Of a DNA stretch of 59,137 nucleotides, positions 1-59,137 are shown one piece after another. The stretch comes from a virus (Duplodnaviria; Caudoviricetes). The translations under genes and the position numbers were made by a program. Numbering within the stretch: the first letter of the stretch is position 1; every line of letters begins with the position of its first letter. The notes below the pieces were generated by a model. It saw only the letters and a program-made list of their open reading frames with translations. It did no database searches and was not told the origin of the DNA. Location: positions 1-59,137 of the IMG/VR virus record IMGVR_UViG_3300002461_000254, one strand, 5' to 3'.

Positions 1-162
1 CTCGCCGGCGCCGACCGCGTGCTGCTCGGCTCCGACTATCCCTTCGACATGGGCGACCTCGATCCCGTCGGCCTGCTCGCGAGTTGCAAGGGGCTCGACG
101 CCGCGGCCCGCAAGGCCATCGAGGCCGACAACGCCAAGAGCCTGTTCCGGATCGGCGGATGA
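1..162 (+). CDS. amidohydrolase family protein (ACMSD/LigW-like), 3' end only
   Basis: Frame 1 reads GADRVLLGSDYPFDMG...NAKSLFRI, stop at 160-162; typical amidohydrolase_2 C-terminus. Confidence 0.8.
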   Translation, partial: LAGADRVLLGSDYPFDMGDLDPVGLLASCKGLDAAARKAIEADNAKSLFRIGG

Positions 163-42728: not shown

Positions 42729-43321
42729 TGGCTCAGCCGATCGTGCGGGAGCACCCGCAGAGGACCATCAGCCGCCTTCAGAGGCAGGTCGATCAGTTGC
42801 GGCGGCAGGCGACGGAACAGCCGATCGAACGCTTTGATGTCGAGGCTGCCGCGGCGCTCAACCAGCTGCGAGAAGTGGTGGCCAGCCTCGCCAGCGAGAT
42901 CATCGCCCTCCGGATCGAGAGCGAGGGGATGCGCCGGGCCGCCGGCGTGGCGGTGGTGATGGACGGTGAGGAGAGCAAATCCGAAGTGCTCTACGGAGCG
43001 GCGGCGATCGCGAGGTTTCTCGGGCTCGCCGAGAAGGTCGTGAGGCATCGCATTGATCAGCAACTGATCCCGACTTTCCGCATTGGCGGAACGGTATGCG
43101 CACGGCCCGCCCGCCTTCGAGAGTGGCTCGCCGATCAAGACAAGCCCGATCTGCTCTACGGGATGAAGGACATCGCGGAGCATCTCGGCCTCTCTGAGCG
43201 TCAGGCGCAGCACCTGCACGACACCTCCCGACTACCGACCTACAAGATTGGTCGGAAGATTTGCGCGCTGCGCTCGAAGCTCGACGGATGGCTTGATCAG
43301 CAAGCGGGGAGGGCAACCTGA
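42725..43321 (+). CDS. coiled coil + tandem AlpA/Xis-like wHTH protein
   Basis: Two repeats homologous to 26280-26483. Confidence 0.75.
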   Translation: MMAQPIVREHPQRTISRLQRQVDQLRRQATEQPIERFDVEAAAALNQLREVVASLASEIIALRIESEGMRRAAGVAVVMDGEESKSEVLYGAAAIARFLGLAEKVVRHRIDQQLIPTFRIGGTVCARPARLREWLADQDKPDLLYGMKDIAEHLGLSERQAQHLHDTSRLPTYKIGRKICALRSKLDGWLDQQAGRAT

Positions 43322-44544
43322 TGGCTAGCGTTCGCAAGAGGAAGTGGACCTATAACGGCACCGTCAGGGAGGCATGGATCGTCGAGTACCGAGACGGAGC
43401 TGGCAAGGTGCGAACCATCACCGAGCGCACCAAGAAGGATGCGGAGCGGCGACGGTTTCAGGTCGAGGCCGAGATCGAACGCGGCGAGCACATCCTGATC
43501 AAGAAGACGGTGCTCGAGTTGTGCGACGACTTCCTCCGGCTACAGGACCAGCGCGTCAGAGACGGCACAATCGGCAGGCCCTGGCGCCGGATCATCGAGA
43601 GGTATGTGCGCCTTCACGTGCTGCCGTACATCGGGGCCCGAATCTTCTCCGAGCTTCAGTCGACGGATGCAGAGCACTGGTGGGTGGAGGTGTCCAAGGC
43701 GGGCACGATGAACGTCCAGACCCGAAAGAGCTGCCTGGAGGTCCTACGGCAGATCGAAGACATGGCGGTCCGCCGCGGTTACGGTAAGCGGCGGGTCTTC
43801 GCGGAGTTCAGACCGGAGCGAGCGGCAGGGCGGCGCACCATCGCAACGTTCACCGTTGACGACGTGAAGGCGCTCATCGAAGCCCTGAAGCACAAGCCGC
43901 GGTGGATCCGTCACCGGATGCACGCCACCATGAAAGTGGCCGTCTATCTGGCGGCATTCTGCGGGCTCCGGCGCGGCGAAATCTTCGGGCTCAAGGCGGA
44001 GAATGTCGACTTCGATCGACGGCTTATCAAGGTGCGCAACAGCCTGACGAACGACCTTGTGCTGAAGGGCCCCAAGACGCGATCGGGCATTCGCGATGTG
44101 CCAATGCCCGGACCTGTAGAAGCGGTGCTTCGCGAGTGGTGGGACACCTACTACCGCCCGAACCCGCACGGCCTACTCTTGACTACGGAGAACGATGCGC
44201 CTGTGACGATGAGCCATGGCTTCTACAACGCTTGGGGCTTGCTGCTTCAGCGGGCCGGTCTTCAGGAAAAAGGGGAGGCCCGGCCCTTCCATTTCCACGC
44301 CCTGCGACACTTCGCGGCGAGCTGGATGCTGGAGGGTCGGCTGTCGCCCCCCGATGTTGCTGGCCTGCTCGGACACCGAACTTTCGATGTCACGTTGCAG
44401 GTTTACGCGCATTCGGTTTTCTCTGGTTCGCACCGGCACGATGCGCTCGATCGGATGGCCTCCGCGTTGGTCGCCGCTCCACAGACAATCACGCTGGAAC
44501 CGGCAAAAACCCGGCAAGAGGGTGCTAAGTCGTTGATTTCATAA
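43321..44544 (+). CDS. int: satellite tyrosine integrase
   Basis: CGLRRGEIFGL, PKT, FHALRHFAAS, LLGH, VYAH; ends 10 bp before attR. Confidence 0.95.
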   Translation: MASVRKRKWTYNGTVREAWIVEYRDGAGKVRTITERTKKDAERRRFQVEAEIERGEHILIKKTVLELCDDFLRLQDQRVRDGTIGRPWRRIIERYVRLHVLPYIGARIFSELQSTDAEHWWVEVSKAGTMNVQTRKSCLEVLRQIEDMAVRRGYGKRRVFAEFRPERAAGRRTIATFTVDDVKALIEALKHKPRWIRHRMHATMKVAVYLAAFCGLRRGEIFGLKAENVDFDRRLIKVRNSLTNDLVLKGPKTRSGIRDVPMPGPVEAVLREWWDTYYRPNPHGLLLTTENDAPVTMSHGFYNAWGLLLQRAGLQEKGEARPFHFHALRHFAASWMLEGRLSPPDVAGLLGHRTFDVTLQVYAHSVFSGSHRHDALDRMASALVAAPQTITLEPAKTRQEGAKSLIS

Positions 44545-45569: not shown

Positions 45570-46061
45570 ATGGCCGGCTATGGCGATGACACGGCTTTCG
45601 CGGCGTGGCTCACCGAGGAGGGGCTCACCCTCCCCGGAGGAGCCCCGACTGCGGCAGTCCTGCGCCAGCGCGGTAGCCGGTACATCGACGCCACCTACGG
45701 CGGCCGCTTCGTCGGCGAGCCCACGGACGGCATTGACCAGGACCGGGCATGGCCGCGCTCAGGCGCCATCGTGCATGGCGTGTCCATCGCGGATGACGTC
45801 GTGCCGAACGCGGTGATCGAGGCCAGTTTCCTCGCAGCGTTCCAGGAGGCGACGACGCCCGGGTCGCTCAGTGGCGCCGCGGTCTCCGGGACGGCCCTCG
45901 TGAAGCGGGAGCGCGTCGAGGGCGCCGTCGAGATCGAATATGCGGTGTCGGAGAAGACCGACCTCGCCGCCGCCTCCCGCGTGATCCTCCCCGCGGTCGA
46001 AGGCATGCTTGCCCCATTCCTTGCGTCCGAGGCCACCGGCTTCGGCATATGGTCCGTCTGA
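45570..46061 (+). CDS. head-tail adaptor
   Basis: RGSRYIDA, QDRAWPR, VPNAVIEA, ERVEGAVEIEY. Confidence 0.75.
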   Translation: MAGYGDDTAFAAWLTEEGLTLPGGAPTAAVLRQRGSRYIDATYGGRFVGEPTDGIDQDRAWPRSGAIVHGVSIADDVVPNAVIEASFLAAFQEATTPGSLSGAAVSGTALVKRERVEGAVEIEYAVSEKTDLAAASRVILPAVEGMLAPFLASEATGFGIWSV

Positions 46062-46426
46062 TGGCCCAGTTCGACTATGGCCGGATGCAGACGAAGGCCG
46101 CGGGCCTGTTCAATCGCTTCCGCCAGGGCGTCGTCACGCTGACCCGGACGCCGACAACGCCGGGCGCGACGCCCATTGATCCCCCGACCTACGGAACGCC
46201 GGTCGTCTACGCCCTCGACGCCGTGGTTCGCGCGGTCGAGGACAAGTTCGTCGACGGCACGCTGGTCTACGCCACCGACCGGCAGGTGATGTGCGCCGTG
46301 CTGCCCATCGAGATCCTGCCCGGCGACACGCTCGCGATCGACGGCAAGGCCGTGACGATCGTCGAGACCATGCGCATCCCCGCCGCGGGCACCGCCGTCG
46401 CCTGGCGCTTCATCGTGCGGGGCTGA
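46061..46426 (+). CDS. head closure protein
   Basis: Position and size; FVDGTLV. Confidence 0.65.
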   Translation: MAQFDYGRMQTKAAGLFNRFRQGVVTLTRTPTTPGATPIDPPTYGTPVVYALDAVVRAVEDKFVDGTLVYATDRQVMCAVLPIEILPGDTLAIDGKAVTIVETMRIPAAGTAVAWRFIVRG

Positions 46427-46427
46427 C

Positions 46428-47438
46428 GTGCCCGCCAACTCATGGGAGCAACTGATCGCGTCGTGGGAGAAGCCCCTTCGGGATGCTTTCCTCGACGGCG
46501 TCTATCGCATCCGCGACGCGGCGCAGATCGGGCTTATCGCCGAGCGGCTCGAGCGCGGTGATGTCGAGGGGGCCCTTCGGGCCGTCGGCATAGACCCCAG
46601 CCGGTTCCGGGAGCTCGACGCGAAGCTCGCCGAGGCCTTCGCCGCCGGCGGGCGCTTCACCGAGAGCCGCATCCCGGCGACGAAAGACCCCAACGGGTTC
46701 CGCCTCGACATCCTCTTTGACATCCGCAACCCCCGCGCCGAGGTCTGGCTGCGCGACCACTCGTCCAACCTCATCCGCCAGATCACTGACGACCAGCGGA
46801 CCATGGTTCGCGCCGCCCTGACGCAGGGCATGATCGACGGCCGCAACCCGCGCGACGTGGCGCTGGAGATTGCCGGCCGGCTCAACCGAGCCACCGGGCG
46901 CCGTGAAGGCGGCCTCATCGGCCTCACATCGACGCAGCAGGAGTGGGCGCGCGGCTATGCCCGCGAGCTCGCCACGGGCGACCCGGCCGCGCTCCAGCGC
47001 CTCATGCGCGACAAACGCTTCGACGCCACGATCCGGCGGGCCATCAAAGAGGGCAGGGGCCTTACCAAGGAGGAAGCCCTGCCGGCGTTCCGGGCCTACC
47101 TCAACCGCGCGCTGAAGATGCGCGGCGAGACGATTGCCCGCACCGAGGCTATGGCGGCGCTTCACGCCTCCGCCCAGGAGGCCATGGCCCAGGCGATCGA
47201 CGCCGGCCAGGTGAACGAGGCCGCCGTCCGCAAGGTCTGGCACTCGGCGCGGGACCGTCGGGTGCGCGACACCCACCGCGCCATGAACGGCCAGCGAGTG
47301 ACGTTTCAGGCGGAGTTCGTCTCGCCGTCAGGCGCGCGGCTTCGCTACCCCGGCGACCCCGCCGCCCCGGCGGCCGAGATCATCAACTGCCGGTGCTGGG
47401 CGGACTACGACATCGATTTCCTCGCCGAGGTCGACTGA
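46428..47438 (+). CDS. MuF / SPP1 gp7-like head morphogenesis protein
   Basis: ETIARTE, KVWHSARDRRVRDTH, YPGDP...INCRC. Confidence 0.9.
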   Translation: MPANSWEQLIASWEKPLRDAFLDGVYRIRDAAQIGLIAERLERGDVEGALRAVGIDPSRFRELDAKLAEAFAAGGRFTESRIPATKDPNGFRLDILFDIRNPRAEVWLRDHSSNLIRQITDDQRTMVRAALTQGMIDGRNPRDVALEIAGRLNRATGRREGGLIGLTSTQQEWARGYARELATGDPAALQRLMRDKRFDATIRRAIKEGRGLTKEEALPAFRAYLNRALKMRGETIARTEAMAALHASAQEAMAQAIDAGQVNEAAVRKVWHSARDRRVRDTHRAMNGQRVTFQAEFVSPSGARLRYPGDPAAPAAEIINCRCWADYDIDFLAEVD

Positions 47439-47854
47439 TGGCCGTCTCCAACCTCTCGTTCGCCGCCCAGGTCGACGGGCTGGTCAAGAAGACCGAGCGC
47501 AACCTGACCGCCGTCTTCCGCGAGAGCGCCAAGCGGGTCATCCAGGAGGCCCAGAACAACGTTCCGGTCGACACAGGCTTCCTGCGATCCTCCCTGCAGG
47601 TCGGCATCAACATGCAGGTGCCGCCCGCTTCCCGGCCTCAGAACGCGCCGGGCCCGGTGCCGAACATCTCGGCGGTGATCGCCGGCGCCAGCCTCGGCGA
47701 CACGATCACGGCCGGCTACACCGCCAACTATGCCCTGTTCGTCGAGTACGGCACCTCCCGAATGGGCCCGCGCCGCTTCGTCGGCCGCGCCGTCGCCAAC
47801 TGGCAGGGCACGGTCAACCGGGTGGTGGCAGAGGTGAACGCTCGGGGTCGATGA
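47438..47854 (+). CDS. HK97 gp10-like neck protein
   Basis: PVDTGFLRSS, YALFVEYGTS. Confidence 0.85.
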   Translation: MAVSNLSFAAQVDGLVKKTERNLTAVFRESAKRVIQEAQNNVPVDTGFLRSSLQVGINMQVPPASRPQNAPGPVPNISAVIAGASLGDTITAGYTANYALFVEYGTSRMGPRRFVGRAVANWQGTVNRVVAEVNARGR

Positions 47855-48041
47855 GGCCTTCGACGTGATCGGCGTCATCCTCGGCCGCCTTCAAGAGGCC
47901 CATCTGCAGCAGTCGCAGCATCATGCGCGCCGCGTCGAGCGCAGTGTTGGCGCGAACCGTCGAGCCCTCGGCCCGGCCCAGCGTCTCAGACGCCTGGTGC
48001 AGCAGGTCGTAAGCCTCAACGTCGGTCAGCTTCAGCGGCAT
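47814..48041 (-). CDS. antisense moron, hypothetical protein
   Basis: 75 aa ORF filling the gap in the tail operon. Confidence 0.5.
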   Translation of the reverse strand: MPLKLTDVEAYDLLHQASETLGRAEGSTVRANTALDAARMMLRLLQMGLLKAAEDDADHVEGLIDPERSPLPPPG

Positions 48042-48092
48042 CGGTGGACGGTAGCAGCGCGCCGCGAAAGCGGGAACTGAAAAGGGTTCGGC

Positions 48093-48506
48093 ATGGCCGT
48101 CTACACCGACACGAAGGTCTGGCGGGCCCTCTCCGCCCGGCTCGCCACGCTGACATTCTCGCCGGCCCTGCCGGTGGCCTGGCCGAACTCGGCATTCGCG
48201 CCGCCCGGCGACCGCAAATGGCTGCGGGTCAACGAACTGCCGGCATCCACCACGCCTTTCGCCCTCTCGGGAGGCACGAGCGAGCGGGTCGGCCTCATGC
48301 AGGTGGACGTGTTCCGCCCCCTGAACGAGGGCCATGTCCCCGCCAAGGAGACGGCAGGCGCCATCGCCGCGCACTTCCCGCCGGCGCTCCGCCTGTTCAG
48401 CGAGGGCGTGAAGGTCGTCATCACCCGATCCGAACTCGGCCCGGTCCTGAAGCAGGACACCGAGATCATGCTGCCCGTGAGCATCCGCTGGCGAGCGTTC
48501 ACCTGA
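48093..48506 (+). CDS. tail terminator (DUF4128-like)
   Basis: VAWPN, GLMQVDVF. Confidence 0.8.
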   Translation: MAVYTDTKVWRALSARLATLTFSPALPVAWPNSAFAPPGDRKWLRVNELPASTTPFALSGGTSERVGLMQVDVFRPLNEGHVPAKETAGAIAAHFPPALRLFSEGVKVVITRSELGPVLKQDTEIMLPVSIRWRAFT

Positions 48507-48567
48507 CCCCGGCTCGAGCCGGCCACACGCCCCGTCCACGCGGGGTTTTTCACACTGGAGAGACCCC

Positions 48568-49050
48568 ATGACGGAGATCAACACGAGCCTGGGCGCCCGG
48601 CTCTACATCTCGAATGCCGCCGTTCTCGACACGATCGACACCGTGACCGAGTTTGAAGGCCTGACCTGGGTCGAGGTCGACCCGGTCGAGAACCTCGGCG
48701 ACTTCGGCGACGAGGCCGCGGCGGTGACGTTCTCCGGCCTCAAGGACGGCCGCATCCGCAAGCTGAAGGGCGCGCGGGATGCCGGCGAGCTCGCCGTCGT
48801 GGTCGGCCACAATCCGACGCAGGTCGGCCAGGTCGCGATGATCGCCGCCGAGGCCACCAAGTTCAACTACGGGTTCAAGGTCGAGATCCCCGACGCGCCG
48901 TCGAACCTCTACACCAACTCGGTCTTCTATTTCAGGGGCCGCGTGATGTCGAAGCGCATGAACGTCGGTGGCAACGGCGACGTGACCCGCAGGACCTTCA
49001 ACGTCGGCATCGACAGCCCGATTTACGAAGACCTGTCGGCGCTGATCTGA
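48568..49050 (+). CDS. major tail tube protein
   Basis: LGDFGD, RIRKLKGARDAG, FYFRGRVMS. Confidence 0.85.
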   Translation: MTEINTSLGARLYISNAAVLDTIDTVTEFEGLTWVEVDPVENLGDFGDEAAAVTFSGLKDGRIRKLKGARDAGELAVVVGHNPTQVGQVAMIAAEATKFNYGFKVEIPDAPSNLYTNSVFYFRGRVMSKRMNVGGNGDVTRRTFNVGIDSPIYEDLSALI

Positions 49051-49060
49051 GGACCGGTCG

Positions 49061-49381
49061 ATGACGATGAACGGCGATACGGACATCACCCTCAATGGCA
49101 AGCCGGTCACCCTGAAGTGCACCCCCCGTGCGCTTCGGGACCTGGATGGCATGGCCGGCAGCTTCAACGACATCCTCAACGGGCTCGTAAGCTTCCGCTT
49201 TTCGACCTACTGCGCCGTCGTCGGCGCCGGTCTCGGCAAGCGTCCCAACATGGTCGAGGACGACGTCTTCGCCTCGGGCCTCGACAATCTCGTCGGCCCG
49301 CTGACCGAGTACGTCGGCCGGCTGATGCGCGGCGGCCGTGAGGCGCCCACCGAGGAGGAGAAGGCCACGGGGGAAGCCTGA
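49061..49381 (+). CDS. tail assembly chaperone (gpG-like)
   Basis: After tail tube; slippery GGGGGAA near the stop. Confidence 0.75.
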   Translation: MTMNGDTDITLNGKPVTLKCTPRALRDLDGMAGSFNDILNGLVSFRFSTYCAVVGAGLGKRPNMVEDDVFASGLDNLVGPLTEYVGRLMRGGREAPTEEEKATGEA

Positions 49382-49629
49382 CCCACTCCGCCTACTTCAC
49401 CTGGCTCATGGAGATCGGGATGGGGTGGATGGGGTGGGACGAAGAGACGACGCTGGACAGCCGCATGACCAGCATCGTCACGGCCTATGAGGGTCGGCAA
49501 GGCATGCTGCGCGCCATTTTTGGCGGCAGCGACAAGGCCAAGCCTGCGGTCGCCGACGGGCTGGTGTCGGCGAAGGACCCGGCCGCGGTGAAGGCCCTGT
49601 TCATGGGGCTGAAGGCCAGGGAGGGTTAG
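49369..49629 (+). CDS. gpT-like -1 frameshift extension
   Basis: Open -1 frame from GGGGGAA: GSLTHSAYFTWLMEIGMGWMGW... Confidence 0.7.
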   Translation, partial: GGSLTHSAYFTWLMEIGMGWMGWDEETTLDSRMTSIVTAYEGRQGMLRAIFGGSDKAKPAVADGLVSAKDPAAVKALFMGLKAREG

Positions 49630-49633
49630 GTGG

Positions 49634-50335: not shown

Positions 50336-50549
50336 GAGCGAGCCAAGCAAGAGGTTGCAGCCTCTGGCCTGGCTCTCACCTCAACCGACCTGTGATGGAG
50401 ATCGGTCATGGCTGTTCGCCTCATACCTCTTTCGTCGCTTTTCCGCGACCCCCTCGTCCGCCGCGCCTTCGAACGCGCCGAGCGGGACAACCCCGGCGCC
50501 AATGCGTTGCCCGTGCGTTCCCCGGTTCTGTCTGGCGGGGAGGCGGCCC

Positions 50550-50852
50550 ATGCACCGGCGTAATTTCCTTGCGGCGGCAGCGACCGTCGCCCTTCCCACC
50601 GCCGCAGTCGCGGCAACCGTCTCGCTGTATGCGGCTGATGTCGCCGCGATCCAGGCTCTGGCCGACAAGGTGGCAGCCCTCTGCGAGGACTGCTCCCGTT
50701 GCCGGGCAGTATACGAGGCCGGCGGCGATCAGGACTGCGAAGCCTGGACGCTCGCCTCGGACGAGCTTCTGCGAGCGCAGGTCGAATTCACGCGGGCCAA
50801 GGCCGCCCTTCATCAACGCGTCATGACGGACGCCGGCATTCCGACCTTCTGA
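50550..50852 (+). CDS. hypothetical protein with Tat-like N-terminus
   Basis: MHRRNFLAAAATVAL. Confidence 0.6.
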   Translation: MHRRNFLAAAATVALPTAAVAATVSLYAADVAAIQALADKVAALCEDCSRCRAVYEAGGDQDCEAWTLASDELLRAQVEFTRAKAALHQRVMTDAGIPTF

Positions 50853-50973
50853 TCACCGAACTTCGCCCTCTGGCAGGGGCAAGACGCGAACCGAGCTTCA
50901 CAGCGCCCGGTATCGCGAAAGCGAACCCGTGCGTCCGGGCCTGCCAGGGCCGGGCGCTGTGGAGACTACGAAA

Positions 50974-51636
50974 ATGGCAAAAGCACCCAAGACCGAGGCG
51001 AAGGGCTTCGAGCTACCGCCCCTCAACATCGGCGTCATGGAGGTGACGCTGATCGGCGACAGTCCGCTCATCGTCCACGCATGGAGCCGCAAGGCCAAGC
51101 TGGAGATGCTCGGCAAGCAGATGAAGCAGGCCAAGGGCGCCAAGGAGGCGAAGGATCCCAAGGCCGACTTCGAAGCCTCGCTCTACCGCCTGGACGACGG
51201 CTACGGCTTCCCGTCGGTGGCGTTCAAGAACGCAGCCGTCACTGCCGGCACGTCGGTGTCCGGCATCACCAAGGTGGCGGCGCGGCAGGCTTTCCATGTG
51301 CTCGGCGAGGACGCCGACGTGGCAGGCGCGTTCGACGGCGCCAAGTCGCGCGTGAACCTTGTTCGCATCATGGGCGGCGAGCCGACGATGCGCGAGGACA
51401 TGGTCCGCGTCGGCATGGGCACTGCCGACCTGCGCTACCGCGGGGAGTTCACCGACTGGTGGGCGAAAATCCTCGTCCGCTACAACGCGAACGTCCTTTC
51501 GGAAGCGCAGATCCTGAACCTGCTCAACGTCGCCGGCTTCGCTGTCGGCGTCGGCGAGTGGAGGCCGGAGCGCGATGGCATGGGCGGCATGTTCCATGTC
51601 GCCACCGAGAAGGACCTCGAGAGGATCGGCGCATGA
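50974..51636 (+). CDS. solo Cas7/RAMP-like protein
   Basis: VTLIGDSPLIVH, YGFPSVAFKNAA, RYRGEF..W...V.Y, and C-terminal Gly loop AGFAVGVGEWRP...GGMFHV. Confidence 0.7.
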   Translation: MAKAPKTEAKGFELPPLNIGVMEVTLIGDSPLIVHAWSRKAKLEMLGKQMKQAKGAKEAKDPKADFEASLYRLDDGYGFPSVAFKNAAVTAGTSVSGITKVAARQAFHVLGEDADVAGAFDGAKSRVNLVRIMGGEPTMREDMVRVGMGTADLRYRGEFTDWWAKILVRYNANVLSEAQILNLLNVAGFAVGVGEWRPERDGMGGMFHVATEKDLERIGA

Positions 51637-52139
51637 GGGTCGCCGGTTACGAGTTCTCCGAGGGCGCCCGCTTCCAGGCGGGAGCCAGCCAGGACCCCAA
51701 GGTGGTAGGCGAGCATCTGGACCTTCTTCGGAAGCAACAGCATGGCGAACTCACCCCCGAGGATGTCGTCGCCGATGCTCGAAACCCGAACAGCCCTCTC
51801 CACTCGTTTTTCGAGTGGGACGACAGCGCCGCAGCGGAGCAGTATCGGCTCCAGCAAGCGCGCGGGCTGATCCGCGCCGTGGTCGCCATCTACGTCCGCG
51901 AGGACAAGCCAGCGGTCCGGACTAAGGCTTTTGTCCACATCAACGAGCCGGGCGCGCCGCACTATCGCGAGGCCGGCCACGCCATGAGCCTGACGAAGAC
52001 CCGAAAGATGGTCCTCCAGCGAGCGTGGCAGGAGTTGCAGGCATGGAGGAAGCGATACCGCGACCTTCAGGAGTTCAGCGAGCTCTTCGACGTGATCGAC
52101 GATGTCGAGAAGCATCTGCCGAAGAAGACGGGCCACTGA
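51633..52139 (+). CDS. accessory protein coupled to the RAMP-like gene
   Basis: ATGA overlap; GELTPEDVVADARNPNSPLHSFFEWDD...RLQQARGLI. Confidence 0.75.
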   Translation: MRVAGYEFSEGARFQAGASQDPKVVGEHLDLLRKQQHGELTPEDVVADARNPNSPLHSFFEWDDSAAAEQYRLQQARGLIRAVVAIYVREDKPAVRTKAFVHINEPGAPHYREAGHAMSLTKTRKMVLQRAWQELQAWRKRYRDLQEFSELFDVIDDVEKHLPKKTGH

Positions 52140-52192
52140 CGGCCAGGGTTACGGCGAGAGTTCCCTAAAACCTCGCGCCCGCAAGGGTTCAC

Positions 52193-52415
52193 GGCAGGCA
52201 AGGCGGGGTGAGTTGTGGCACGGCAAGTCCGGGCACGGGTTGCAAGGCAGGCTTGGCAAGGTGGGGTTTGGCTTGTCACGTCGAGGCATGGCCGGGCAGG
52301 CGAGGTGGGGCAAGGCACGTCCCGGCAAGCCGCGGATAGGTGTGGCAGGAATGGCGTCGCGAGTTGTGGCGCGGCCCGCTCTGGTGGGGCATGGCCGGCC
52401 ATGGTCAGACAGGCA
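52193..52415 (+). ncRNA. (GGY-NN)n pentamer array in four units; putative guide RNAs
   Basis: Strict 5-nt periodicity with GGCA junctions at 52193, 52246, 52295, 52344 and 52412. Confidence 0.8.
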
Positions 52416-52422
52416 GTTGAAG

Positions 52423-52448
52423 GGGCCTCGGCGCGAATGCCGGGGCTT
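52423..52448 (+). terminator. hairpin closing the array
   Basis: GGGCCTCGGC-GCGAAT-GCCGGGGCTT between convergent transcription units. Confidence 0.55.
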
Positions 52449-52453
52449 AGCCT

Positions 52454-52891
52454 CTAGGGGCAGTTGAATGGGGCGCGGGTAGCCGCGACGATGCACTGGT
52501 TGGCGGCGTTGCCGCAGATCGTCTGCATTGTGCCGGCCACGGTGAGGCGCCCGCGCATCTGGTAGCCGACAGGACAGGCCGATGCGGGAGCGGCTGCGCG
52601 GCGGGCAGGGGCGGTAGTCGCTGGCCGCGTCGGCGCCTGGTTGATGATCGTAGTGTTGTTGATCGTCGACGGTGCCGCGGCGGCAGGACGAGGCCCGACC
52701 CTTACGTTCAAGTTGACGCGAGGCGTGCTCACTCGTGGCGCACGAACGCGAGCCGCGCTCCGCGCGCGAGGCCTAGACGATCGCGCGGATGACCGACGCC
52801 CGCGGCGCATCTCAATAGTGGTTTGCGGAATATCCAGCGCCGCCGTCGGAGCGGCGACAAGAAGATGGGCAGCAAAAAGCAATTCGATCAT
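52454..52891 (-). CDS. secreted Arg/Pro/Ala-rich protein with Cys-containing C-terminus
   Basis: Signal peptide; GGAGG RBS. Confidence 0.55.
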   Translation of the reverse strand: MIELLFAAHLLVAAPTAALDIPQTTIEMRRGRRSSARSSRPRARSAARVRAPRVSTPRVNLNVRVGPRPAAAAPSTINNTTIINQAPTRPATTAPARRAAAPASACPVGYQMRGRLTVAGTMQTICGNAANQCIVAATRAPFNCP

Positions 52892-52964
52892 CGTTTCCTC
52901 CCGCGAAGCTATCGTTAGATGGGCCGATGCTCGCAGAGGTGGTACCGGCTGTCGAGTCGCACAG

Positions 52965-53153
52965 CTAGAGCGGCCTTCCGTATTGATCATACCGCGGTCC
53001 CTTCACCGGCACCGCGATGAGCGCAATCAGGCTGAGGACCGGGAAGAGAAGCCCGAGCAAAAACCAGCCCAGTCCGCTGCGGTTCTTTGACCGCGCGATG
53101 AACGCGCAGAAGCCAGCGGCAACCAACCAGGCGAACAGGATCAGCGGCTCCAT
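52965..53153 (-). CDS. small two-TM membrane protein
   Basis: IARSKNRSGLGWFLLGLLF. Confidence 0.7.
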   Translation of the reverse strand: MEPLILFAWLVAAGFCAFIARSKNRSGLGWFLLGLLFPVLSLIALIAVPVKGPRYDQYGRPL

Positions 53154-53183
53154 GCCGTGCGCTCCGCATAAAAGGAAACGTCG

Positions 53184-55256
53184 ATGACCGACGCGGCCGT
53201 TCTTGGCATCGAAATCAAGACCAAAGGCGCCGATGAGGCAAGGCGCCAGCTTGAGAGCATGTCGAAGTCGTCATCCTCTGCCGAGAAGGCTGTATCCGAT
53301 CTTGCGCGCGGTGTGGGGGTATCCAGCGAAGAAATGGTGCGGCGGCTCCAGACTGCCGCCAAGGCCGCCGACGACTTCAAGCGAGCCGGCAATGCGGCAG
53401 GCGCCAACCTGGCGGACTTCGGACGGGCTGCCGATGGGGCCGGGCGCCAGGTCAGTGACCTGACCGGTGGCGTCAATCGTTTCGGTGTGTCGTTCGCTCG
53501 AGCTTTCTCCGCCGCGGTCATCACGGCGGGCATCGCGGGGGCAGTCAAGGCACTCTCCGACCTCAAGGCCGAGCTTCTCGACATCGAAAACGTTGCCAAC
53601 CTGGCCGGCCTCTCTGTGGAAAGGATGACCGCCTATCAGCAGATTGGCCGGTCGGTAGGCGTCGCCGGCGAAGAGACATCGCGGAATCTTCGTGGCATCG
53701 CCGAAAAGCTGAACGAGGCGCAGAACAGCGAGAACAGCCTGACCCGGATTCTTCGCGCAAATAACATCGCGTTCAAGGACCGCGAGGGCGCCGTCATTAG
53801 CGTCAATCAGGCAATGGAGATCGCCGCCGGCCTGATCGAGCGGGCCAAGACCGAGCTCGACAAGATCGATATCGCCAAGGCGCTTGGCCTCACGGAAAAC
53901 TGGGTTCAGATACTGGAGAAGGGCCCCCGGGCGCTCCAGCAGTCGCTCGGGGAAGTCGAGCGGCTTGGGACCGGCATCAACACCGAGATGGTCGAAAAGG
54001 CCCGCGCTTTTGAAAACGCCTGGAACCAGGCTATGGCGAATTGGGCCACCTATTCGAAGTCGGTCATCTACGACTTGGGCAAGTATATCGGCGGGCTGAT
54101 CACCCAAGCCCAGCGCCTTGCAAACATGGCGCCCGACCAAATCCAGGATGCAACATCACGCGCGACCGCGCGTGGGGATCGAGCGAATGGCGTCTACGAC
54201 CCCGCCACTGGCACATGGAGCGGGCCGAGCCCCAATATGGCTCCGGATGGCTCTTATGTGTCGTTTCTCCCCCCGACCCCGGTCGACCGGCCTCCTGAAA
54301 GCACGATCTCCGGAGAGACAAACGTCCCGCGGGGTCGCGCTCGATCTGGCGGCGGCGGCGGGGGTAACGATACCCTATCTTCCTTCGACCGCTCCCTTCG
54401 CCAAATGGAGGAGCGCAACGCCCTCGCCCGCCAGGAACTGGCGACGATGGGCCTCTCCACACAGCAGCGCGAGGCCGCGCTCGCCTATGAGCGCGCGCTG
54501 AACGTTGCCAAGCGGGACGGGGAGACGCTCACGGAGGACCAGCTCCAGAAGCTGCGGGCGCAGTCCGAGGAGTACGGCCGCATCCAGGCGCAATTGGAGC
54601 AGACCAAGAGGCTGATGCGCGAGCTGCGCGAGCTGTCCGACTTCGCCCGCTCCACCGTCTCCGGCCTGTTCACCGACACGCTCTCCGGGATCCAGCAGGG
54701 CAAGGGGGTGTGGGAGAGCTTCGCTCAGGCCGCCGTGAGCGCGCTCAACAAGATCTCCAACAAGCTGGCCGAGATGGCGATCAACGGCCTCTGGGAGGCG
54801 GCATTCCCGACGTCTGGCGGGGGCGGCGGTGGCCTCTTCGGCGCGCTCCTCGGCGGTGTGCTTGGCGGCCTGGGAGGCGGCGGGGACAAGTTCGCCATCA
54901 AGGCGGCCCAGGGCGCTGTCATCCGGCACGGAAACGTCGTGCCGTTCGCCAAGGGCGGCATCGTGACCGGGCCGACGACCTTCCCGATGTCGGGCGGGCG
55001 CACCGGCCTGATGGGCGAGGCAGGCGAGGAAGGCATCTTCCCGATCCGCCGCATGTCCAACGGCGACATGGGCGTCGCCGCTGCAAACTCGAACCGGCCG
55101 CAGTCGATCAGCCTGACCGTCGTGGTCGAGGGCGCCAACGGCGACCAGCACGTCATCGATCTCGTCCGCCAGGGCGTCGAGGCCGGCATGTCGCAGGTGC
55201 AGGCCAACATCGTGCCCACGGTGCGCGAAGGTCTCAGGCGGGGGGCTCTGCGGTGA
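53184..55256 (+). CDS. tail tape measure protein
   Basis: Long helical protein; C-terminal PFAKGGIVTGPT...MGEAGEEGIFP. Confidence 0.92.
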   Translation: MTDAAVLGIEIKTKGADEARRQLESMSKSSSSAEKAVSDLARGVGVSSEEMVRRLQTAAKAADDFKRAGNAAGANLADFGRAADGAGRQVSDLTGGVNRFGVSFARAFSAAVITAGIAGAVKALSDLKAELLDIENVANLAGLSVERMTAYQQIGRSVGVAGEETSRNLRGIAEKLNEAQNSENSLTRILRANNIAFKDREGAVISVNQAMEIAAGLIERAKTELDKIDIAKALGLTENWVQILEKGPRALQQSLGEVERLGTGINTEMVEKARAFENAWNQAMANWATYSKSVIYDLGKYIGGLITQAQRLANMAPDQIQDATSRATARGDRANGVYDPATGTWSGPSPNMAPDGSYVSFLPPTPVDRPPESTISGETNVPRGRARSGGGGGGNDTLSSFDRSLRQMEERNALARQELATMGLSTQQREAALAYERALNVAKRDGETLTEDQLQKLRAQSEEYGRIQAQLEQTKRLMRELRELSDFARSTVSGLFTDTLSGIQQGKGVWESFAQAAVSALNKISNKLAEMAINGLWEAAFPTSGGGGGGLFGALLGGVLGGLGGGGDKFAIKAAQGAVIRHGNVVPFAKGGIVTGPTTFPMSGGRTGLMGEAGEEGIFPIRRMSNGDMGVAAANSNRPQSISLTVVVEGANGDQHVIDLVRQGVEAGMSQVQANIVPTVREGLRRGALR

Positions 55257-56895: not shown

Positions 56896-59137
56896 ATGAA
56901 GCGCATTCTCGCCCTTGCCCTGCTAGCTCTGCTGGCGGGGAGCTCGCCCGCGGCTGCGGATCCGATCTCCCTTGCCATCGGCGCGCTCGTCACGTCGATC
57001 GGCTCGATTGGCGCCACCGTTGGCGCCTTCGTCACCGGCCTCGGCGTGCTTGGCAAGGCGCTGATCTCCATCGGTCTGTCGCTTGCGCTGTCCTTTGTTT
57101 CGTCGCTGTTCCGGCCCAAGCCGAAGCAGGCTGAAGGCGGGGTTCAAAGCCAAATCCAGATCGGCGGCGACGTTCCGCGCTCTGGCATCTTCGGTAAACA
57201 GTCGACCGCAGGCCACATCGTCTATGTGAACACCTCCGGCGGCAGCAATGCCGTGCTGGAGATGGTGTTCGCCGTTGGCGACGGGCGGCATGAGGGGCTG
57301 TCGCGGGTCTGGGTCAACGGCAAACTGTCCGGCCTGACGCAGCCGGGCGCCGACCCCTACTATGTCGTGGATGGCTTCGATGGGAAGCTGACGCTCACCT
57401 TCGTGCCCGGCACTGCGGACCAGTCGGCACTAGCCTCGCTGGTGGCCAGCGCCAACCCTTCTGGCCGGTGGTCCACCGATCACACCCTGACCGGCATTGC
57501 CTACATCGTCGCGCGCCTTCAGTACGACGAGAAGGTATTTCCCAACGGCGTGCCGCAGCTTCTGTTCGAGATGGAGGGCCTGCGCCTCTACGACCCTCGC
57601 TTCGACAGCACGAACGGCGGGACGGGATCGCAGCGCTGGGATGATCCGACGACCTGGGCCTATTCCGAGAACCCGGCCATCCAGCTCTACAACTACCAGC
57701 GCGGCATCTTCCTGGACGGCGAGCGCGTCCTCGGCATGGGTCTGCCCGCGAGCGACCTCAACACCGCGTCCTATATCGCCGCGGCCAACATCTGCGACGA
57801 GACCGTCAGCCTCGCCGGGGGTGGCACCGAGACGCGCTACCGTTGCGGCTTCATCGTCAGCGACGGGATGCAGCACTCGGAGGTTATCGATCGCTTCGTC
57901 GAGGCCATGGGCGGCGTGATTGCCGAGCGGGCCGGGCTCTACACCGTGTTCGCTGGCGTGGCGCAGACCTCCGTCGTGACCATCACGGATGGCGATCTGG
58001 TGCTTGGCCGGCCCCGCACCTTCTCCGGCAAGAAGTCCCGCACCGAGCGGGTCAATGCCGTCTTCGGGACCTATTCCAATCCGGATGAGCAATGGAAGCC
58101 GGTCGCGTTCCCCGCGTTCACGTCCGACACGTTCGAAGCTGAGGACGGCGGCGAGCGTCTCGCCGTCAACCTCGACCTCGCGCAGGTTTTCTCAGTCACG
58201 CAGGCTCAGCGCCTGGCAATGATCCAGCGCCGTCTCGGTCGCCTCCAGGGCACGGCCGAAATCTCCCTGCCGTTCGCCTACATCCGGATCGAAGCCGGAG
58301 ACTGGATGACCTGGCAGTCGGCGCGTTTTGGTTTCACGAAGGTCTGGCAGGTCGTTTCCGCGCGGATCGAGGCTGACCAGACTATCCGCCTGTCGCTCCG
58401 CGAGATCGCTACCAGCGTCTTCTCGTGGATCTCCGGGGACGACGAGCTGGAGGTGGCGCAGCCTGGCCTCGTGCCAAGCCGGCCGCCTCTCGCCGGCGGG
58501 CTGAGCGAGTTCGCCGCGTCGCCGGTCACGATCGAAGGCGACAATGGAAGCGCTGCCCCGGCAATCCGCGCCAGCTGGAATCCGATCGAAGACGAGACCG
58601 TCGCGGCCGTCATCATCGAGCATCGGATCGGCGCGAGCGGCGAGGCTGGTCAGACGCGCTCCGTCAACCGCTTGGGCGGTTTCGTGGTCATTTCCGACGG
58701 CATCCAGCCGAACACCGTCTATCAGGTGCGCGGTACGATCGAGACAGTGCCAGCACGTGAGACGACGTGGTCGTCTTGGGTCAGCGTGACGACCCCAGAT
58801 GTGCGGATCACCGAGGGGGAGCTCGACGACGCCATCACTGCGGCAATCACCACGGCCGGCACCAACGCGGCGCGGGCGCTCCAGGACGCGCAGGATCTGA
58901 TCGCGGCGCTTTCGGCAGACGCGAACCGCTCGCAGCCGGCATCGGCGCGGCTTAACCTCGACCTGTCCAGCCGCTTGGAGCAGCTCTCCGGCGCGGTGCT
59001 CGCTTCTCAGGCTGCGGTCGAGGACTTCAAGGGCGTCCTCGGTGACCTTGGCTGGGAGCGCATCGGCCCCGGTGGTGCATCCCGGTTCCGCGCCATCGAT
59101 GTCGTCAACAATGGCCTGACCACGCTGACGACGCAGA
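56896..59137 (+). CDS. tail tip / host specificity protein (J-like), truncated by the window
   Basis: Open frame to the window end; YDPRFDSTNGGTGSQRWDDPTTWAYSENPA, AAANICDE. Confidence 0.88.
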   Translation, partial: MKRILALALLALLAGSSPAAADPISLAIGALVTSIGSIGATVGAFVTGLGVLGKALISIGLSLALSFVSSLFRPKPKQAEGGVQSQIQIGGDVPRSGIFGKQSTAGHIVYVNTSGGSNAVLEMVFAVGDGRHEGLSRVWVNGKLSGLTQPGADPYYVVDGFDGKLTLTFVPGTADQSALASLVASANPSGRWSTDHTLTGIAYIVARLQYDEKVFPNGVPQLLFEMEGLRLYDPRFDSTNGGTGSQRWDDPTTWAYSENPAIQLYNYQRGIFLDGERVLGMGLPASDLNTASYIAAANICDETVSLAGGGTETRYRCGFIVSDGMQHSEVIDRFVEAMGGVIAERAGLYTVFAGVAQTSVVTITDGDLVLGRPRTFSGKKSRTERVNAVFGTYSNPDEQWKPVAFPAFTSDTFEAEDGGERLAVNLDLAQVFSVTQAQRLAMIQRRLGRLQGTAEISLPFAYIRIEAGDWMTWQSARFGFTKVWQVVSARIEADQTIRLSLREIATSVFSWISGDDELEVAQPGLVPSRPPLAGGLSEFAASPVTIEGDNGSAAPAIRASWNPIEDETVAAVIIEHRIGASGEAGQTRSVNRLGGFVVISDGIQPNTVYQVRGTIETVPARETTWSSWVSVTTPDVRITEGELDDAITAAITTAGTNAARALQDAQDLIAALSADANRSQPASARLNLDLSSRLEQLSGAVLASQAAVEDFKGVLGDLGWERIGPGGASRFRAIDVVNNGLTTLTTQ

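What the first reader, a model, noticed from the sequence alone, without database searches (positions are those of the whole stretch)
52193..52415. Hidden grammar of the array: constant triplet + variable dinucleotide, in units of about 49 nt
Seen: each unit is GGCA followed by pentamers. U1 (52193-245): NN = aa gg ga gt ac aa cg ac tt, then gcaa. U2 (52246-294): tt aa gg tt tt ac ga at cg. U3 (52295-343): ga gg aa ac cc aa gc ta gt. U4 (52344-411): at gt ga gt gc cc ct gg at cg at ca. Triplets are mostly GGC/GGT with GTC/GTT/GCC/GGA variants. NN strings do not repeat and are far less GC-rich than the genome, unlike a slippage microsatellite. U2 and U3 are both exactly 49 nt. A hairpin CCC-GCAA-GGG precedes the array. 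Inference: four separate guides processed at GGCAGG.
Basis: partly seen in the sequence, partly recalled or inferred. Interest (0 to 1): 0.9.

Follow-up and report, generated by a model that had tools for sequence, protein, structure and literature searches.

The report
VIPR guide-RNA array in a phage
The odd five-base rhythm is a phage-encoded VIPR guide-RNA array, a CRISPR-like system first described in 2026, sitting beside its Vipr protein gene and apparently aimed at tail genes of closely related rival phages.

Summary
Bases 52193-52415 carry a strict 5-nt rhythm, GGY plus two free bases (z = 8.9 against the rest of the contig). It splits into units of 9, 9, 9 and 12 pentamers separated by a 4-nt GGCA step.

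It is not new. It matches VIPR (Viral Interference Programmable Repeat) systems, described in 2026 bioRxiv preprints. In those, vrRNAs of 9-16 GGYNN repeats are bound by a small RAMP protein (Vipr), and the NN bases read DNA with one base skipped.

- The two genes just upstream are a Vipr homologue (PDB SUSP1 Vipr, E = 2.6e-12; Cas7/Csm3 fold) and an accessory gene.
- The same three-part cassette recurs in IMG/VR contigs, rhizobial prophages and cluster F mycobacteriophages.
- Under the published skip rule, unit 1 exactly matches the major tail gene of a sibling phage, while this phage's own copy matches 15 of 18.
- Unit 3 exactly matches a J-like tail-fibre gene of another sibling.
- Unit 4 resembles tape-measure gene starts.
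- Unit 2 has no clear target.

Tail-less back-to-back units fit the preprint's "staggered array" class. Expression and processing were not tested.

The parts
50974..51636 (+). vipr gene: a small RAMP (Cas7-like) protein of 220 aa, counted from the ATG at 50974. The open frame starts at a GTG at 50929.
   Evidence: - PHROG: phrog_4652, E = 2.3e-28, function unknown.
- Sequence against PDB: chain 36pp_D 'SUSP1 Vipr protein', E = 2e-4 for the single protein.
- A 69-sequence profile gives E = 2.6e-12 across the G-loop, where GVGEWRP in the window aligns with GVGDWRP.
- AlphaFold model: mean pLDDT 94.5.
- Foldseek against PDB: 45 matches at E <= 1e-3. Every row printed is a CRISPR RAMP complex or subunit (type III Csm/Cmr, type VII, Cas7-11), and the top match is 6xn3_F at 6.3e-6.
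51636..52139 (+). vap-like accessory gene, 167 aa.
   Evidence: - PHROG: phrog_15946, E = 7.2e-24, function unknown.
- Found next to the array, on the array's strand, in 70 of 119 array loci, and together with vipr in 66.
- AlphaFold model: mean pLDDT 94.7.
- Foldseek against PDB: no match at E <= 1e-3. The weak top rows are mostly winged-helix DNA binders such as MarR, ArsR, RepE and AspA.
52193..52245 (+). vrRNA unit 1: GGCA, then 9 GGYNN pentamers, then GCAA. NN = AA GG GA GT AC AA CG AC TT.
   Evidence: - Parse.
- The skip-rule pattern has 2 exact hits in viral contigs. The reversed control has 0.
- One hit is the major tail gene of L123.
52246..52294 (+). vrRNA unit 2: GGCA, then 9 pentamers. 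NN = TT AA GG TT TT AC GA AT CG.
   Evidence: - Parse.
- 0 exact hits in viral contigs.
- 42 metagenome hits, mostly on low-G+C contigs and unconvincing as targets.
- Target unresolved.
52295..52343 (+). vrRNA unit 3: GGCA, then 9 pentamers. NN = GA GG AA AC CC AA GC TA GT.
   Evidence: - Parse.
- 6 exact hits in viral contigs. The reversed control has 0.
- All 6 lie in frame and read [DE]GKTPNAYV.
52344..52411 (+). vrRNA unit 4: GGCA, then 12 pentamers, several of them degenerate. NN = AT GT GA GT GC CC CT GG AT CG AT CA.
   Evidence: - Parse.
- No exact hit in viral contigs or metagenome contigs.
- Its single best site in sibling contig L130 is the tape-measure start codon, 17 of 24.
- The window's own tape-measure start scores 16 of 24.
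52423..52448 (+). 10-bp hairpin after the last unit, a possible 3' end or terminator. It has no T run.
   Evidence: - Fold of 52405-52500. The whole stretch scores z = -1.25, which is not significant.
- By eye, relatives L010, L131, L067 and L082 end their arrays with G+C-rich hairpins, some followed by T runs.
48973..48998 (+). The phage's own near-target of unit 1, inside its major tail protein gene (48568-49050).
   Evidence: - 15 of 18 informative bases match. This is the best site in the contig, and 3 of 200 shuffled guides reach that score.
- The site is homologous to the exact hit in L123, whose protein is 93% identical.
- The differences are AAG to CGC (K to R) and CGC to AGG (synonymous).
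53184..53218 (+). The phage's own tape-measure gene start, which resembles unit 4.
   Evidence: 16 of 24 informative bases match. Only 5 sites on the two strands of the contig score 16 or more.

Best explanation
The array is the guide-RNA part of a VIPR system carried by a temperate siphophage-like contig, probably of a rhizobial host.

**Established by others for SUSP1 and P. fulva systems (PMC13142463; 10.64898/2026.04.26.720927)**
- The array is transcribed.
- Vipr protomers polymerise along it, one per pentamer.
- Two neighbouring protomers grip each GGY and display the two N bases.
- The displayed dinucleotides pair with DNA while every third target base is skipped.
- This silences transcription of the target.

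**Shown here**
- The grammar of the array.
- The adjacent vipr and accessory genes on the same strand.
- The RAMP fold of the vipr product.
- The recurrence of the cassette in many phages.
- The hypervariability of NN.
- Exact in-frame skip-rule matches of units 1 and 3 to tail genes of sibling phages.

**Inferred**
- The four units act as four guides delimited by the 4-nt GGCA step. This would be the preprint's 'staggered' architecture, with no per-guide 3' tail.
- The array is co-transcribed with vipr and vap and ends at the hairpin at 52423-52448.
- The guides silence the tail module (major tail, tape measure, J-like fibre) of closely related competitor phages.
- The phage's own alleles escape through mismatches.
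For: **Periodicity and parse**
-.

**The same grammar elsewhere**
- 116 of the 120 IMG/VR stretches returned by one pattern scan carry it.
- In 141 arrays (55,424 nt), GGY-to-GGY spacing is 5 in 5310 cases, 4 in 851 and 10 in 759.
- 683 of the 4-nt steps read GGCAGGC.
- 581 of 922 GGCAGG spacings are 4 mod 5, with peaks at 39 to 64 nt.
- The units between junctions peak at 8-11 pentamers among 1226 parsed units.

**Flanking genes**
- The vipr family is present in 76 of 119 array loci.
- The vap family is present in 70, and both in 66.
- Every copy lies on the array's strand.

**Vipr membership**
-.

**NN information**
- 0.00-0.05 bits, against about 1.1 bits per G.
- Sister prophages have wholly different NN strings.

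**Targets**
- Unit 1 matches 18 of 18 in the L123 major tail gene. That protein is 93% identical to the window's own, and the window's own site matches 15 of 18.
- L123 shares 78-90% nucleotide identity with window 45570-49630.
- Unit 3 matches 18 of 18 in L130. L130 shares the tail module at about 77% and its fibre protein is 31% identical to window 57064-58836.
- The reversed-pattern controls gave 0 and 0 hits.
- The unit 4 site lies at tape-measure start codons.

**NN composition**
- NN is 46% G+C in a 66% G+C genome. That is expected if NN mirror codon positions 1 and 2 (the explanation is inference).
Against: - **No RNA data.** No listed sequencing run holding this DNA is on record as RNA, so transcription, unit boundaries and Vipr binding are untested.
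- **Partial sequence match to Vipr.** Similarity to the solved SUSP1 Vipr covers only the C-terminal third or so. The Foldseek library predates the Vipr entries, so fold identity with Vipr itself was not tested.
- **No conserved 3' tail.** No pseudoknot-type tail like that of type II vrRNAs was seen.
- **Two guides lack an exact target.** These are units 2 and 4.
- **No excess of near-matches in host-family genomes.** In 401 genomes of the family of G001, unit 3 at up to 1 mismatch had 3 hits against 3 control hits. All 3 real hits read xGKTPNAY[VLI].
- **No excess of differences at the unit 1 site.** Window versus L123 gives 3 of 21 position-1/2 differences inside the 18 site positions (P = 0.10).
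- **Unit 1 passes the authors' own threshold against its own genome.** Its self-match is 83%, above the 80% NN threshold the authors used when reporting no self-targeting.
- **No cross-targeting of this contig.** Guides from the other arrays do not hit it more than shuffled guides do: 7 against 3 at up to 2 mismatches, out of 672 guides.
Confidence: 0.9

Rival explanations
1. The guides regulate the phage's own late genes. Partial matches to its own major tail gene and tape-measure start would let Vipr-vrRNA damp or time tail-gene expression, rather than attack rivals.
For: - Unit 1 matches the phage's own major tail gene at 15 of 18 (83%). This is the best site in the contig, and only 3 of 200 shuffles reach it.
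- 83% is above the 80% NN threshold used in the preprint's methods.
- Unit 4 matches the phage's own tape-measure start at 16 of 24, one of only 5 such sites in the contig.
- The cassette sits inside the tail module, between the chaperone genes and the tape-measure gene.
Against: - Perfect matches exist in sibling phages at the homologous sites, whereas the phage's own alleles carry 3 and 8 mismatches.
- The preprint reports that disturbing NN pairing abolished silencing, and found no self-targeting at its threshold in the sets it examined.
- Unit 3 has no match in the contig better than 13 of 18.
Confidence: 0.06
2. The region encodes protein: a low-complexity, Gly/Ala/Arg-rich peptide with a 5-residue repeat. 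Annotators assumed this for the matching arrays in some mycobacteriophages.
For: - All six frames are open across the array.
- GenBank records annotate 'hypothetical protein' over the homologous arrays in ByChance gp39 and in DRBy19, Philus and BobaPhett.
Against: - The constraint has period 5, not 3. The period-3 signal is 0.28 here against a contig mean of 0.31.
- The 49-nt units shift the reading frame.
- The free positions fall in every codon phase.
- The two long ORFs across the array have no Pfam or PHROG family.
- Open frames are expected anyway at 66% G+C.
Confidence: 0.02
3. The array is a protein-binding RNA or DNA sponge without guide function, a TRAP-like 'triplet plus spacer' site. 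It would only titrate or nucleate the neighbouring protein, and the NN bases would carry no information.
For: - The layout of a triplet plus a 2-nt spacer resembles TRAP binding sites (recalled, not tested).
- Units 2 and 4 have no exact target.
Against: - Units 1 and 3 give exact, in-frame matches in tail genes of phages that share this phage's own tail module. The reversed controls gave none.
- The cited experiments show that NN programs the target.
Confidence: 0.02

Closest known systems
VIPR type II systems of Escherichia phage SUSP1 and a Pseudomonas fulva prophage (PMC13142463; 10.64898/2026.04.26.720927; 10.64898/2026.10.15.759431)
   Same: - A small RAMP protein gene and one accessory gene sit beside arrays of 9-16 GGYNN repeats.
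- The NN bases are hypervariable.
- Targets lie in protein-coding DNA of rival mobile elements, with the skipped base at the wobble position.
- The G-loop motif G-[DE]-W-R-P is shared.
   Different: - The units here abut one another. No conserved 3' tail or pseudoknot lies between them.
- Sequence similarity to SUSP1 Vipr is limited to roughly the last 70 residues.
- GTY triplets are common here.
- It could not be tested whether the accessory gene is vap1, because no Vap sequence was available.
'Staggered vrRNA arrays' of the same preprint (legend to fig. S18, read)
   Same: The legend says individual vrRNAs derive from positions overlapping by 1 nt, so that the end of one marks the start of the next. 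That fits a 4-nt GGCA step between runs of 5-nt units.
   Different: - The figure and the data tables could not be seen, so the match is my inference from the legend.
- The main text says sRNA-seq confirmed only the ribozyme-interspersed and single-vrRNA architectures.
Class 1 CRISPR backbone proteins (Cas7/Csm3/Cmr4) on crRNA
   Same: - The closest solved folds are Cas7-family subunits.
- Per the structure preprint, the protein forms a filament on the guide, with a thumb breaking the guide-target duplex periodically.
   Different: - The period is 5 with three bases hidden, rather than 6 with one base flipped.
- No repeat-spacer array, cas1/cas2 gene or nuclease gene was seen in the cassette.
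TRAP binding sites in Bacillus trp leader RNA (recalled, not tested)
   Same: Conserved triplets are separated by 2-3 free bases, one triplet per protein subunit.
   Different: - TRAP is a closed ring that regulates its own operon.
- Its spacers carry no information.
- It is not a RAMP.

Membership tests
VIPR system | A Vipr protein (a minimal RAMP with an RRM core, G-loop and thumb) is encoded next to the array. | tested here: met
   - The profile of 69 homologues hits PDB 36pp_D 'SUSP1 Vipr protein' at E = 2.6e-12.
- The model has pLDDT 94.5.
- Foldseek gives 45 PDB matches at E <= 1e-3, and all rows shown are CRISPR RAMP complexes or subunits.
- A direct fold comparison with a Vipr structure was not possible, because the library ends on 2026-04-08.
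VIPR system | The vrRNA consists of 9-16 tandem GGYNN pentamers. | tested here: met
   - The units have 9, 9, 9 and 12 pentamers.
- Across the family, units peak at 8-11 pentamers among 1226 parsed units.
VIPR system | GGY is conserved and NN is hypervariable among relatives. | tested here: met
   - Each G carries about 1.1 bits, Y about 0.5 bits and NN 0.00-0.05 bits, in 711 junction contexts upstream of the searched motif.
- Prophages with 79-80% identical Vipr share no NN string with the window.
VIPR system | G-loop residues that grip GGY, which are D177, W178 and R179 in SUSP1. | tested here: met
   - GVGEWRP in the window aligns with GVGDWRP in SUSP1, with E in place of D.
- G188, G192 and R197 are invariant among the 68 sequences, and G194 and P198 are nearly so.
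- Correspondence of H17 and R138 was not established.
VIPR system | An accessory vap gene lies in the locus. | tested here: inconclusive
   - A conserved 167-aa gene (phrog_15946) accompanies vipr in 66 of 119 loci.
- Its fold has only weak winged-helix-like matches, the best at E = 0.28.
- It was not compared with any named Vap.
VIPR system | The NN bases match DNA targets under the 1-nt skip rule, typically with the skipped base at the wobble position. | tested here: met
   - Units 1 and 3 have 2 and 6 exact hits, all in frame in a long ORF. The two reversed controls have 0 and 0.
- Two of the hits lie in siblings of this phage.
- Units 2 and 4 have no exact target.
VIPR system | The vrRNA is expressed, forms an RNP with Vipr and silences its target. 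| not testable with these tools
   No RNA run holding this DNA was listed. This needs bench work.
VIPR type II (SUSP1 clade) | Each vrRNA ends in an invariable structured 3' tail (a pseudoknot). | tested here: not met
   - The units are separated only by GGCA.
- The folds of the units and the trailer are not better than shuffles, at z = -0.39 and -1.25.
- No shared downstream motif was seen among 10 relatives.

The most novel reading that the evidence does not exclude
This clade of tail-less, back-to-back ('staggered') VIPR arrays uses the single-base GGC-A-GGC step as the only signal that ends one Vipr filament and starts the next.

In this phage, the guide set is a dedicated weapon against the tail module of near-identical sibling phages. 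The bearer's own tail genes have been recoded at codon positions 1 and 2, including an Arg CGC-to-AGG switch. That would be the kind of escape that wobble-skipping cannot prevent.

The case would be a natural, datable example of a VIPR arms race between siblings, and a testable rule for guide boundaries. By the main text I read, that architecture was not confirmed by RNA sequencing.
Probability: 0.3. Interest if true: 0.55.

Novelty: new member of a known kind. Interest (0 to 1): 0.35.

Why it matters
- **It supports the scan.** A reader without tools recovered the VIPR code (constant GGY, informative NN, separate guides) from raw sequence.
- **It adds a concrete case outside the studied enterobacterial and Pseudomonas systems.** This is a probable rhizobial temperate phage whose guides point at the tail genes of its own siblings, with its own alleles mismatched.
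- **The cassette is widespread.**
  - 34 GenBank phage records carry the vipr homologue. These are cluster F mycobacteriophages and Gordonia phages, plus one cyanophage and one Pseudomonas phage.
  - In those records the genes are 'hypothetical', and some arrays are annotated as coding sequences.
- **It gives numbers on the GGCA junction and on unit lengths.** These could guide array callers and experiments on how tail-less arrays are divided into guides.

Tried and rejected
**Searches on the array and its ORFs that found nothing**
- Rfam found nothing in the array. There were 4 chance-level rows elsewhere in 50500-54000.
- Tandem Repeats Finder found nothing.
- Pfam, PHROGs and NCBIfam gave no named function for the two genes or for the ORFs over the array.

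**Ideas dropped**
- My first ideas were a TRAP-like ring site, G-quadruplexes, a Rho-loading site on the opposite strand, Chi-like sites, and a pac or ori site. I dropped them once the flanking gene family hit 'SUSP1 Vipr protein'.

**Literature**
- A search for 'mycobacteriophage' plus 'pentanucleotide' found nothing relevant.

**Target searches that gave no support**
- Skip-rule searches in three prophage-bearing genomes (G001-G003), at up to 3 mismatches, gave counts like the built-in controls for all four units.
- Unit 3 in 401 genomes of G001's family gave 3 hits against 3 control hits.
- The 42 metagenome hits of unit 2 are mostly on low-G+C contigs. The 60% G+C hit lies in a frame that reads like an antisense ORF.
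- Guides from 672 units of other arrays do not hit this contig more than shuffled guides do.

**Accessory protein**
- A profile search against PDB and Foldseek gave no significant match.

**Sequencing runs**
- No RNA holder was listed.
- Contigs of four drinking-water runs were laid on the region. Short low-depth contigs identical to 52197-52426 and 52311-52500 were seen. No variant of the array was seen, so this gave no test of where relatives vary.

**What could not be seen**
- The supplements and figures of the preprints. The VIPR type (I-VII), and whether this clade is among their 664 loci, could therefore not be settled.

Full report
**What is there.**
- The window is the whole record: one 59,137-bp contig at 66% G+C.
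- It has phage head, tail and integrase genes.
- Bases 52193-52415 lie in a gap between a + strand gene ending at 52139 and a - strand ORF ending at 52454.
- An independent dynamic-programming parse returns units of 9, 9, 9 and 12 pentamers, with the listed NN strings.

**Is it more than chance?**
- Self-identity is 0.477, 0.437 and 0.462 at lags 5, 10 and 15.
- The period-5 excess is z = 8.9 in a sliding scan of the contig. The runner-up is z = 3.5.
- Tandem Repeats Finder and Rfam see nothing.
- The ORFs that cross the array have no family.
- The small CCC-GCAA-GGG hairpin is present, but it is not better than shuffled sequence.

**How the identity was found.**
- A sensitive blastn of the array against GenBank phages hit only cluster F mycobacteriophages (21 records).
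- In Saal and ByChance the match is a roughly 250-nt stretch of NNGGC pentamers punctuated by GGCAGGC.
- 116 of the 120 hold a dense period-5 array, in contigs of 42-73% G+C.
- In 141 arrays (55,424 nt), GGY-to-GGY spacing is 5 in 5310 cases, 4 in 851 and 10 in 759.
- 683 of the 4-nt steps read GGCAGGC.
- 581 of 922 GGCAGG spacings are 4 mod 5, peaking at 39, 44, 49, 54, 59 and 64 nt.

**Flanking genes.** All-against-all BLAST of the flanking ORFs gave two dominant families.
- One includes window 50929-51636 and is present in 76 of 119 array loci.
- The other includes window 51636-52139 and is present in 70. Both occur together in 66.
- Every copy lies on the array's strand.
- The array can lie before, between or after the two genes. 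Saal gp51 and gp52 are members.
- 39 loci had neither gene within 4 kb. Many of these are short loci, or arrays at contig ends.

**The protein.**
- The first family hits PDB chain 36pp_D, 'SUSP1 Vipr protein'. The single protein gives E = 2e-4 and a 69-sequence profile gives E = 2.6e-12, across a G-loop reading GVGEWRP against GVGDWRP.
- Its AlphaFold model (pLDDT 94.5) finds 45 PDB matches at E <= 1e-3. All rows listed are CRISPR RAMP complexes or subunits (type III Csm/Cmr, type VII, Cas7-11).
- That library ends on 2026-04-08 and holds no Vipr entry.

**What is known.** I read four preprints.
- PMC13142463 (also 10.64898/2026.04.26.720920): Results, Discussion, legends and passages.
  - It describes VIPR systems as a vipr RAMP gene, a vap accessory gene, and vrRNAs of 9-16 GGYNN repeats.
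  - The NN bases pair with double-stranded DNA while one target base in three is skipped.
  - The skipped base is usually the wobble base.
  - The result is transcriptional silencing of rival phages and satellites.
- 10.64898/2026.04.26.720927: Results part 1. It shows one protomer per repeat, and names the G-loop residues D177, W178 and R179.
- 10.64898/2026.10.15.759431: outline, one methods section and passages. It gives the caller and the target scan that I imitated.
- 10.64898/2026.10.21.760802: passages. It recovers 99 period-5 clusters.

Seven types exist. Type II has a per-guide 3' pseudoknot tail. Other architectures include 'staggered arrays' whose vrRNAs overlap by 1 nt (legend to fig. 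S18). The main text does not list these among the architectures confirmed by sRNA-seq.

**How this locus compares.**
- It meets the tested defining features: a Vipr homologue, the unit length, conserved GGY with free NN, the G-loop motif and skip-rule targets.
- It does not have a type II tail. The units abut, the folds are not better than shuffles, and the downstream sequences of 10 relatives share no motif.
- By eye, several relatives end the array in a G+C-rich hairpin, some followed by a T run.
- I read the GGC-A-GGC step as the 1-nt stagger of the preprint's staggered class. That is an inference from a legend.
- The type could not be assigned, because the figures and supplements were not visible.
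- The accessory protein folds confidently (pLDDT 94.7) but has only weak winged-helix-like matches.

**Relatives and host.**
- The closest Vipr homologues (79-80% identity) are in Phyllobacterium, Mesorhizobium and a Rhizobiaceae MAG, with the same vipr-vap-array order.
- Their NN strings share nothing with the window's.
- Across 711 junction contexts, NN carries 0.00-0.05 bits and each G about 1.1 bits.
- 34 GenBank phage records encode the homologue: 27 Mycobacterium, 5 Gordonia, one cyanophage and one Pseudomonas phage. It is labelled 'hypothetical' in the 30 rows listed.

**Targets (inference built on the published rule).**

*Unit 1*
- It has 2 exact hits in IMG/VR.
- One hit is in the 160-aa major tail protein gene of L123 (phrog_158).
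- That protein is 93% identical to the window's own gene at 48568-49050.
- L123 shares 78-90% nucleotide identity with window 45570-49630 and then diverges.
- The window's own homologous site matches 15 of 18. It is the best site in the contig, and 3 of 200 shuffles reach that score.
- The differences are a K-to-R change and a synonymous CGC-to-AGG change.
- The other exact hit (L124, 43% G+C, a beta-helix protein) is probably chance.

*Unit 3*
- It has 6 exact hits (5 independent), all in frame and reading [DE]GKTPNAYV.
- L125 and L129 were scanned and are J-like tail fibre proteins (Phage-tail_3; phrog_31 and phrog_5616).
- L128 and L130 look alike in length and layout but were not scanned.
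- L126 and L127 are a DUF4376 protein.
- L130 is the same contig as L206. It carries an 87% identical major tail protein, about 77% nucleotide identity over the tail module, and a fibre protein 31% identical to window 57064-58836.

*Controls and the other units*
- The reversed patterns of units 1 and 3 gave 0 and 0 hits.
- Unit 4 has no exact hit. Its single best site in L130 is the tape-measure start codon (17 of 24). The window's own tape-measure start scores 16 of 24, and only 5 sites in the contig score that high.
- Unit 2 is unresolved.

So three of the four guides point at tail-module genes of this phage's siblings. Compared with L130, the cassette lies within extra DNA between the tail chaperone genes and the tape-measure gene.

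**Results against, or neutral.**
- In host-family genomes, near-matches were no commoner than controls.
- The excess of differences at the unit 1 site is not significant against L123 (P = 0.10). It is modest against L130 (P = 0.012).
- Guides from other arrays do not target this contig above shuffles.
- Unit 1's 83% self-match exceeds the authors' 80% threshold. That keeps a self-regulation reading alive at low odds.
- No RNA data exist for this DNA.
- Identical pieces of the array occur at low depth in drinking-water metagenomes of another study. This shows only that the sequence is real.

**Verdict.**
- The kind of system is already in print (2026 preprints).
- This locus is a new, unannotated member, probably of the staggered, tail-less architecture.
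- Its predicted targets are plausible and testable.

Noticed in passing
L001 2365-2615 (Mycobacterium phage Saal) and L002 2465-2660 (ByChance); also DRBy19, Philus and BobaPhett: Cluster F mycobacteriophages carry the same GGCAGGC-punctuated array just upstream of the vipr and vap homologues (Saal gp51 and gp52), in the early region after the Rha-like gene. Several GenBank records annotate a 'hypothetical protein' CDS over the array, which is probably non-coding.
   Followed up: partly
window 52454-53153, minus strand: Two minus-strand ORFs sit between the array and the tape-measure gene, convergent with the cassette. One is 178 aa with no family. The other is a 62-aa small membrane protein (phrog_9201). 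They look like a moron-type insertion.
   Followed up: no
window 43321-44541: An integrase (phrog_1, E = 1.8e-58) lies upstream of the head genes, so the phage is probably temperate.
   Followed up: no
window 84-2375: A 764-aa ORF matches phrog_25833, labelled 'dehydrogenase' (E = 1.3e-79). That is an odd label for a large phage protein at the contig start. It was not examined further.
   Followed up: no
window 52412-52475: The motif GGCAGTTGAA followed by G-rich sequence occurs twice after the last unit (about 52412 and 52459), each time before a hairpin. It could be a degenerate extra unit or a 3' end signal.
   Followed up: no
window 52197-52426 and 52311-52500, against runs X4 and X6: Short, low-depth contigs identical to the array occur in 2024 drinking-water metagenomes of a different study from the probable 2015 source sample. 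The same runs also hold a more abundant relative whose vipr gene is about 82-85% identical over the parts that aligned.
   Followed up: partly
L046 1934-3601 (IMG/VR contig of 158,651 bp): This locus has a very long array region of about 1.7 kb with 14 matches to the search pattern. That is far more guides than in the window.
   Followed up: no
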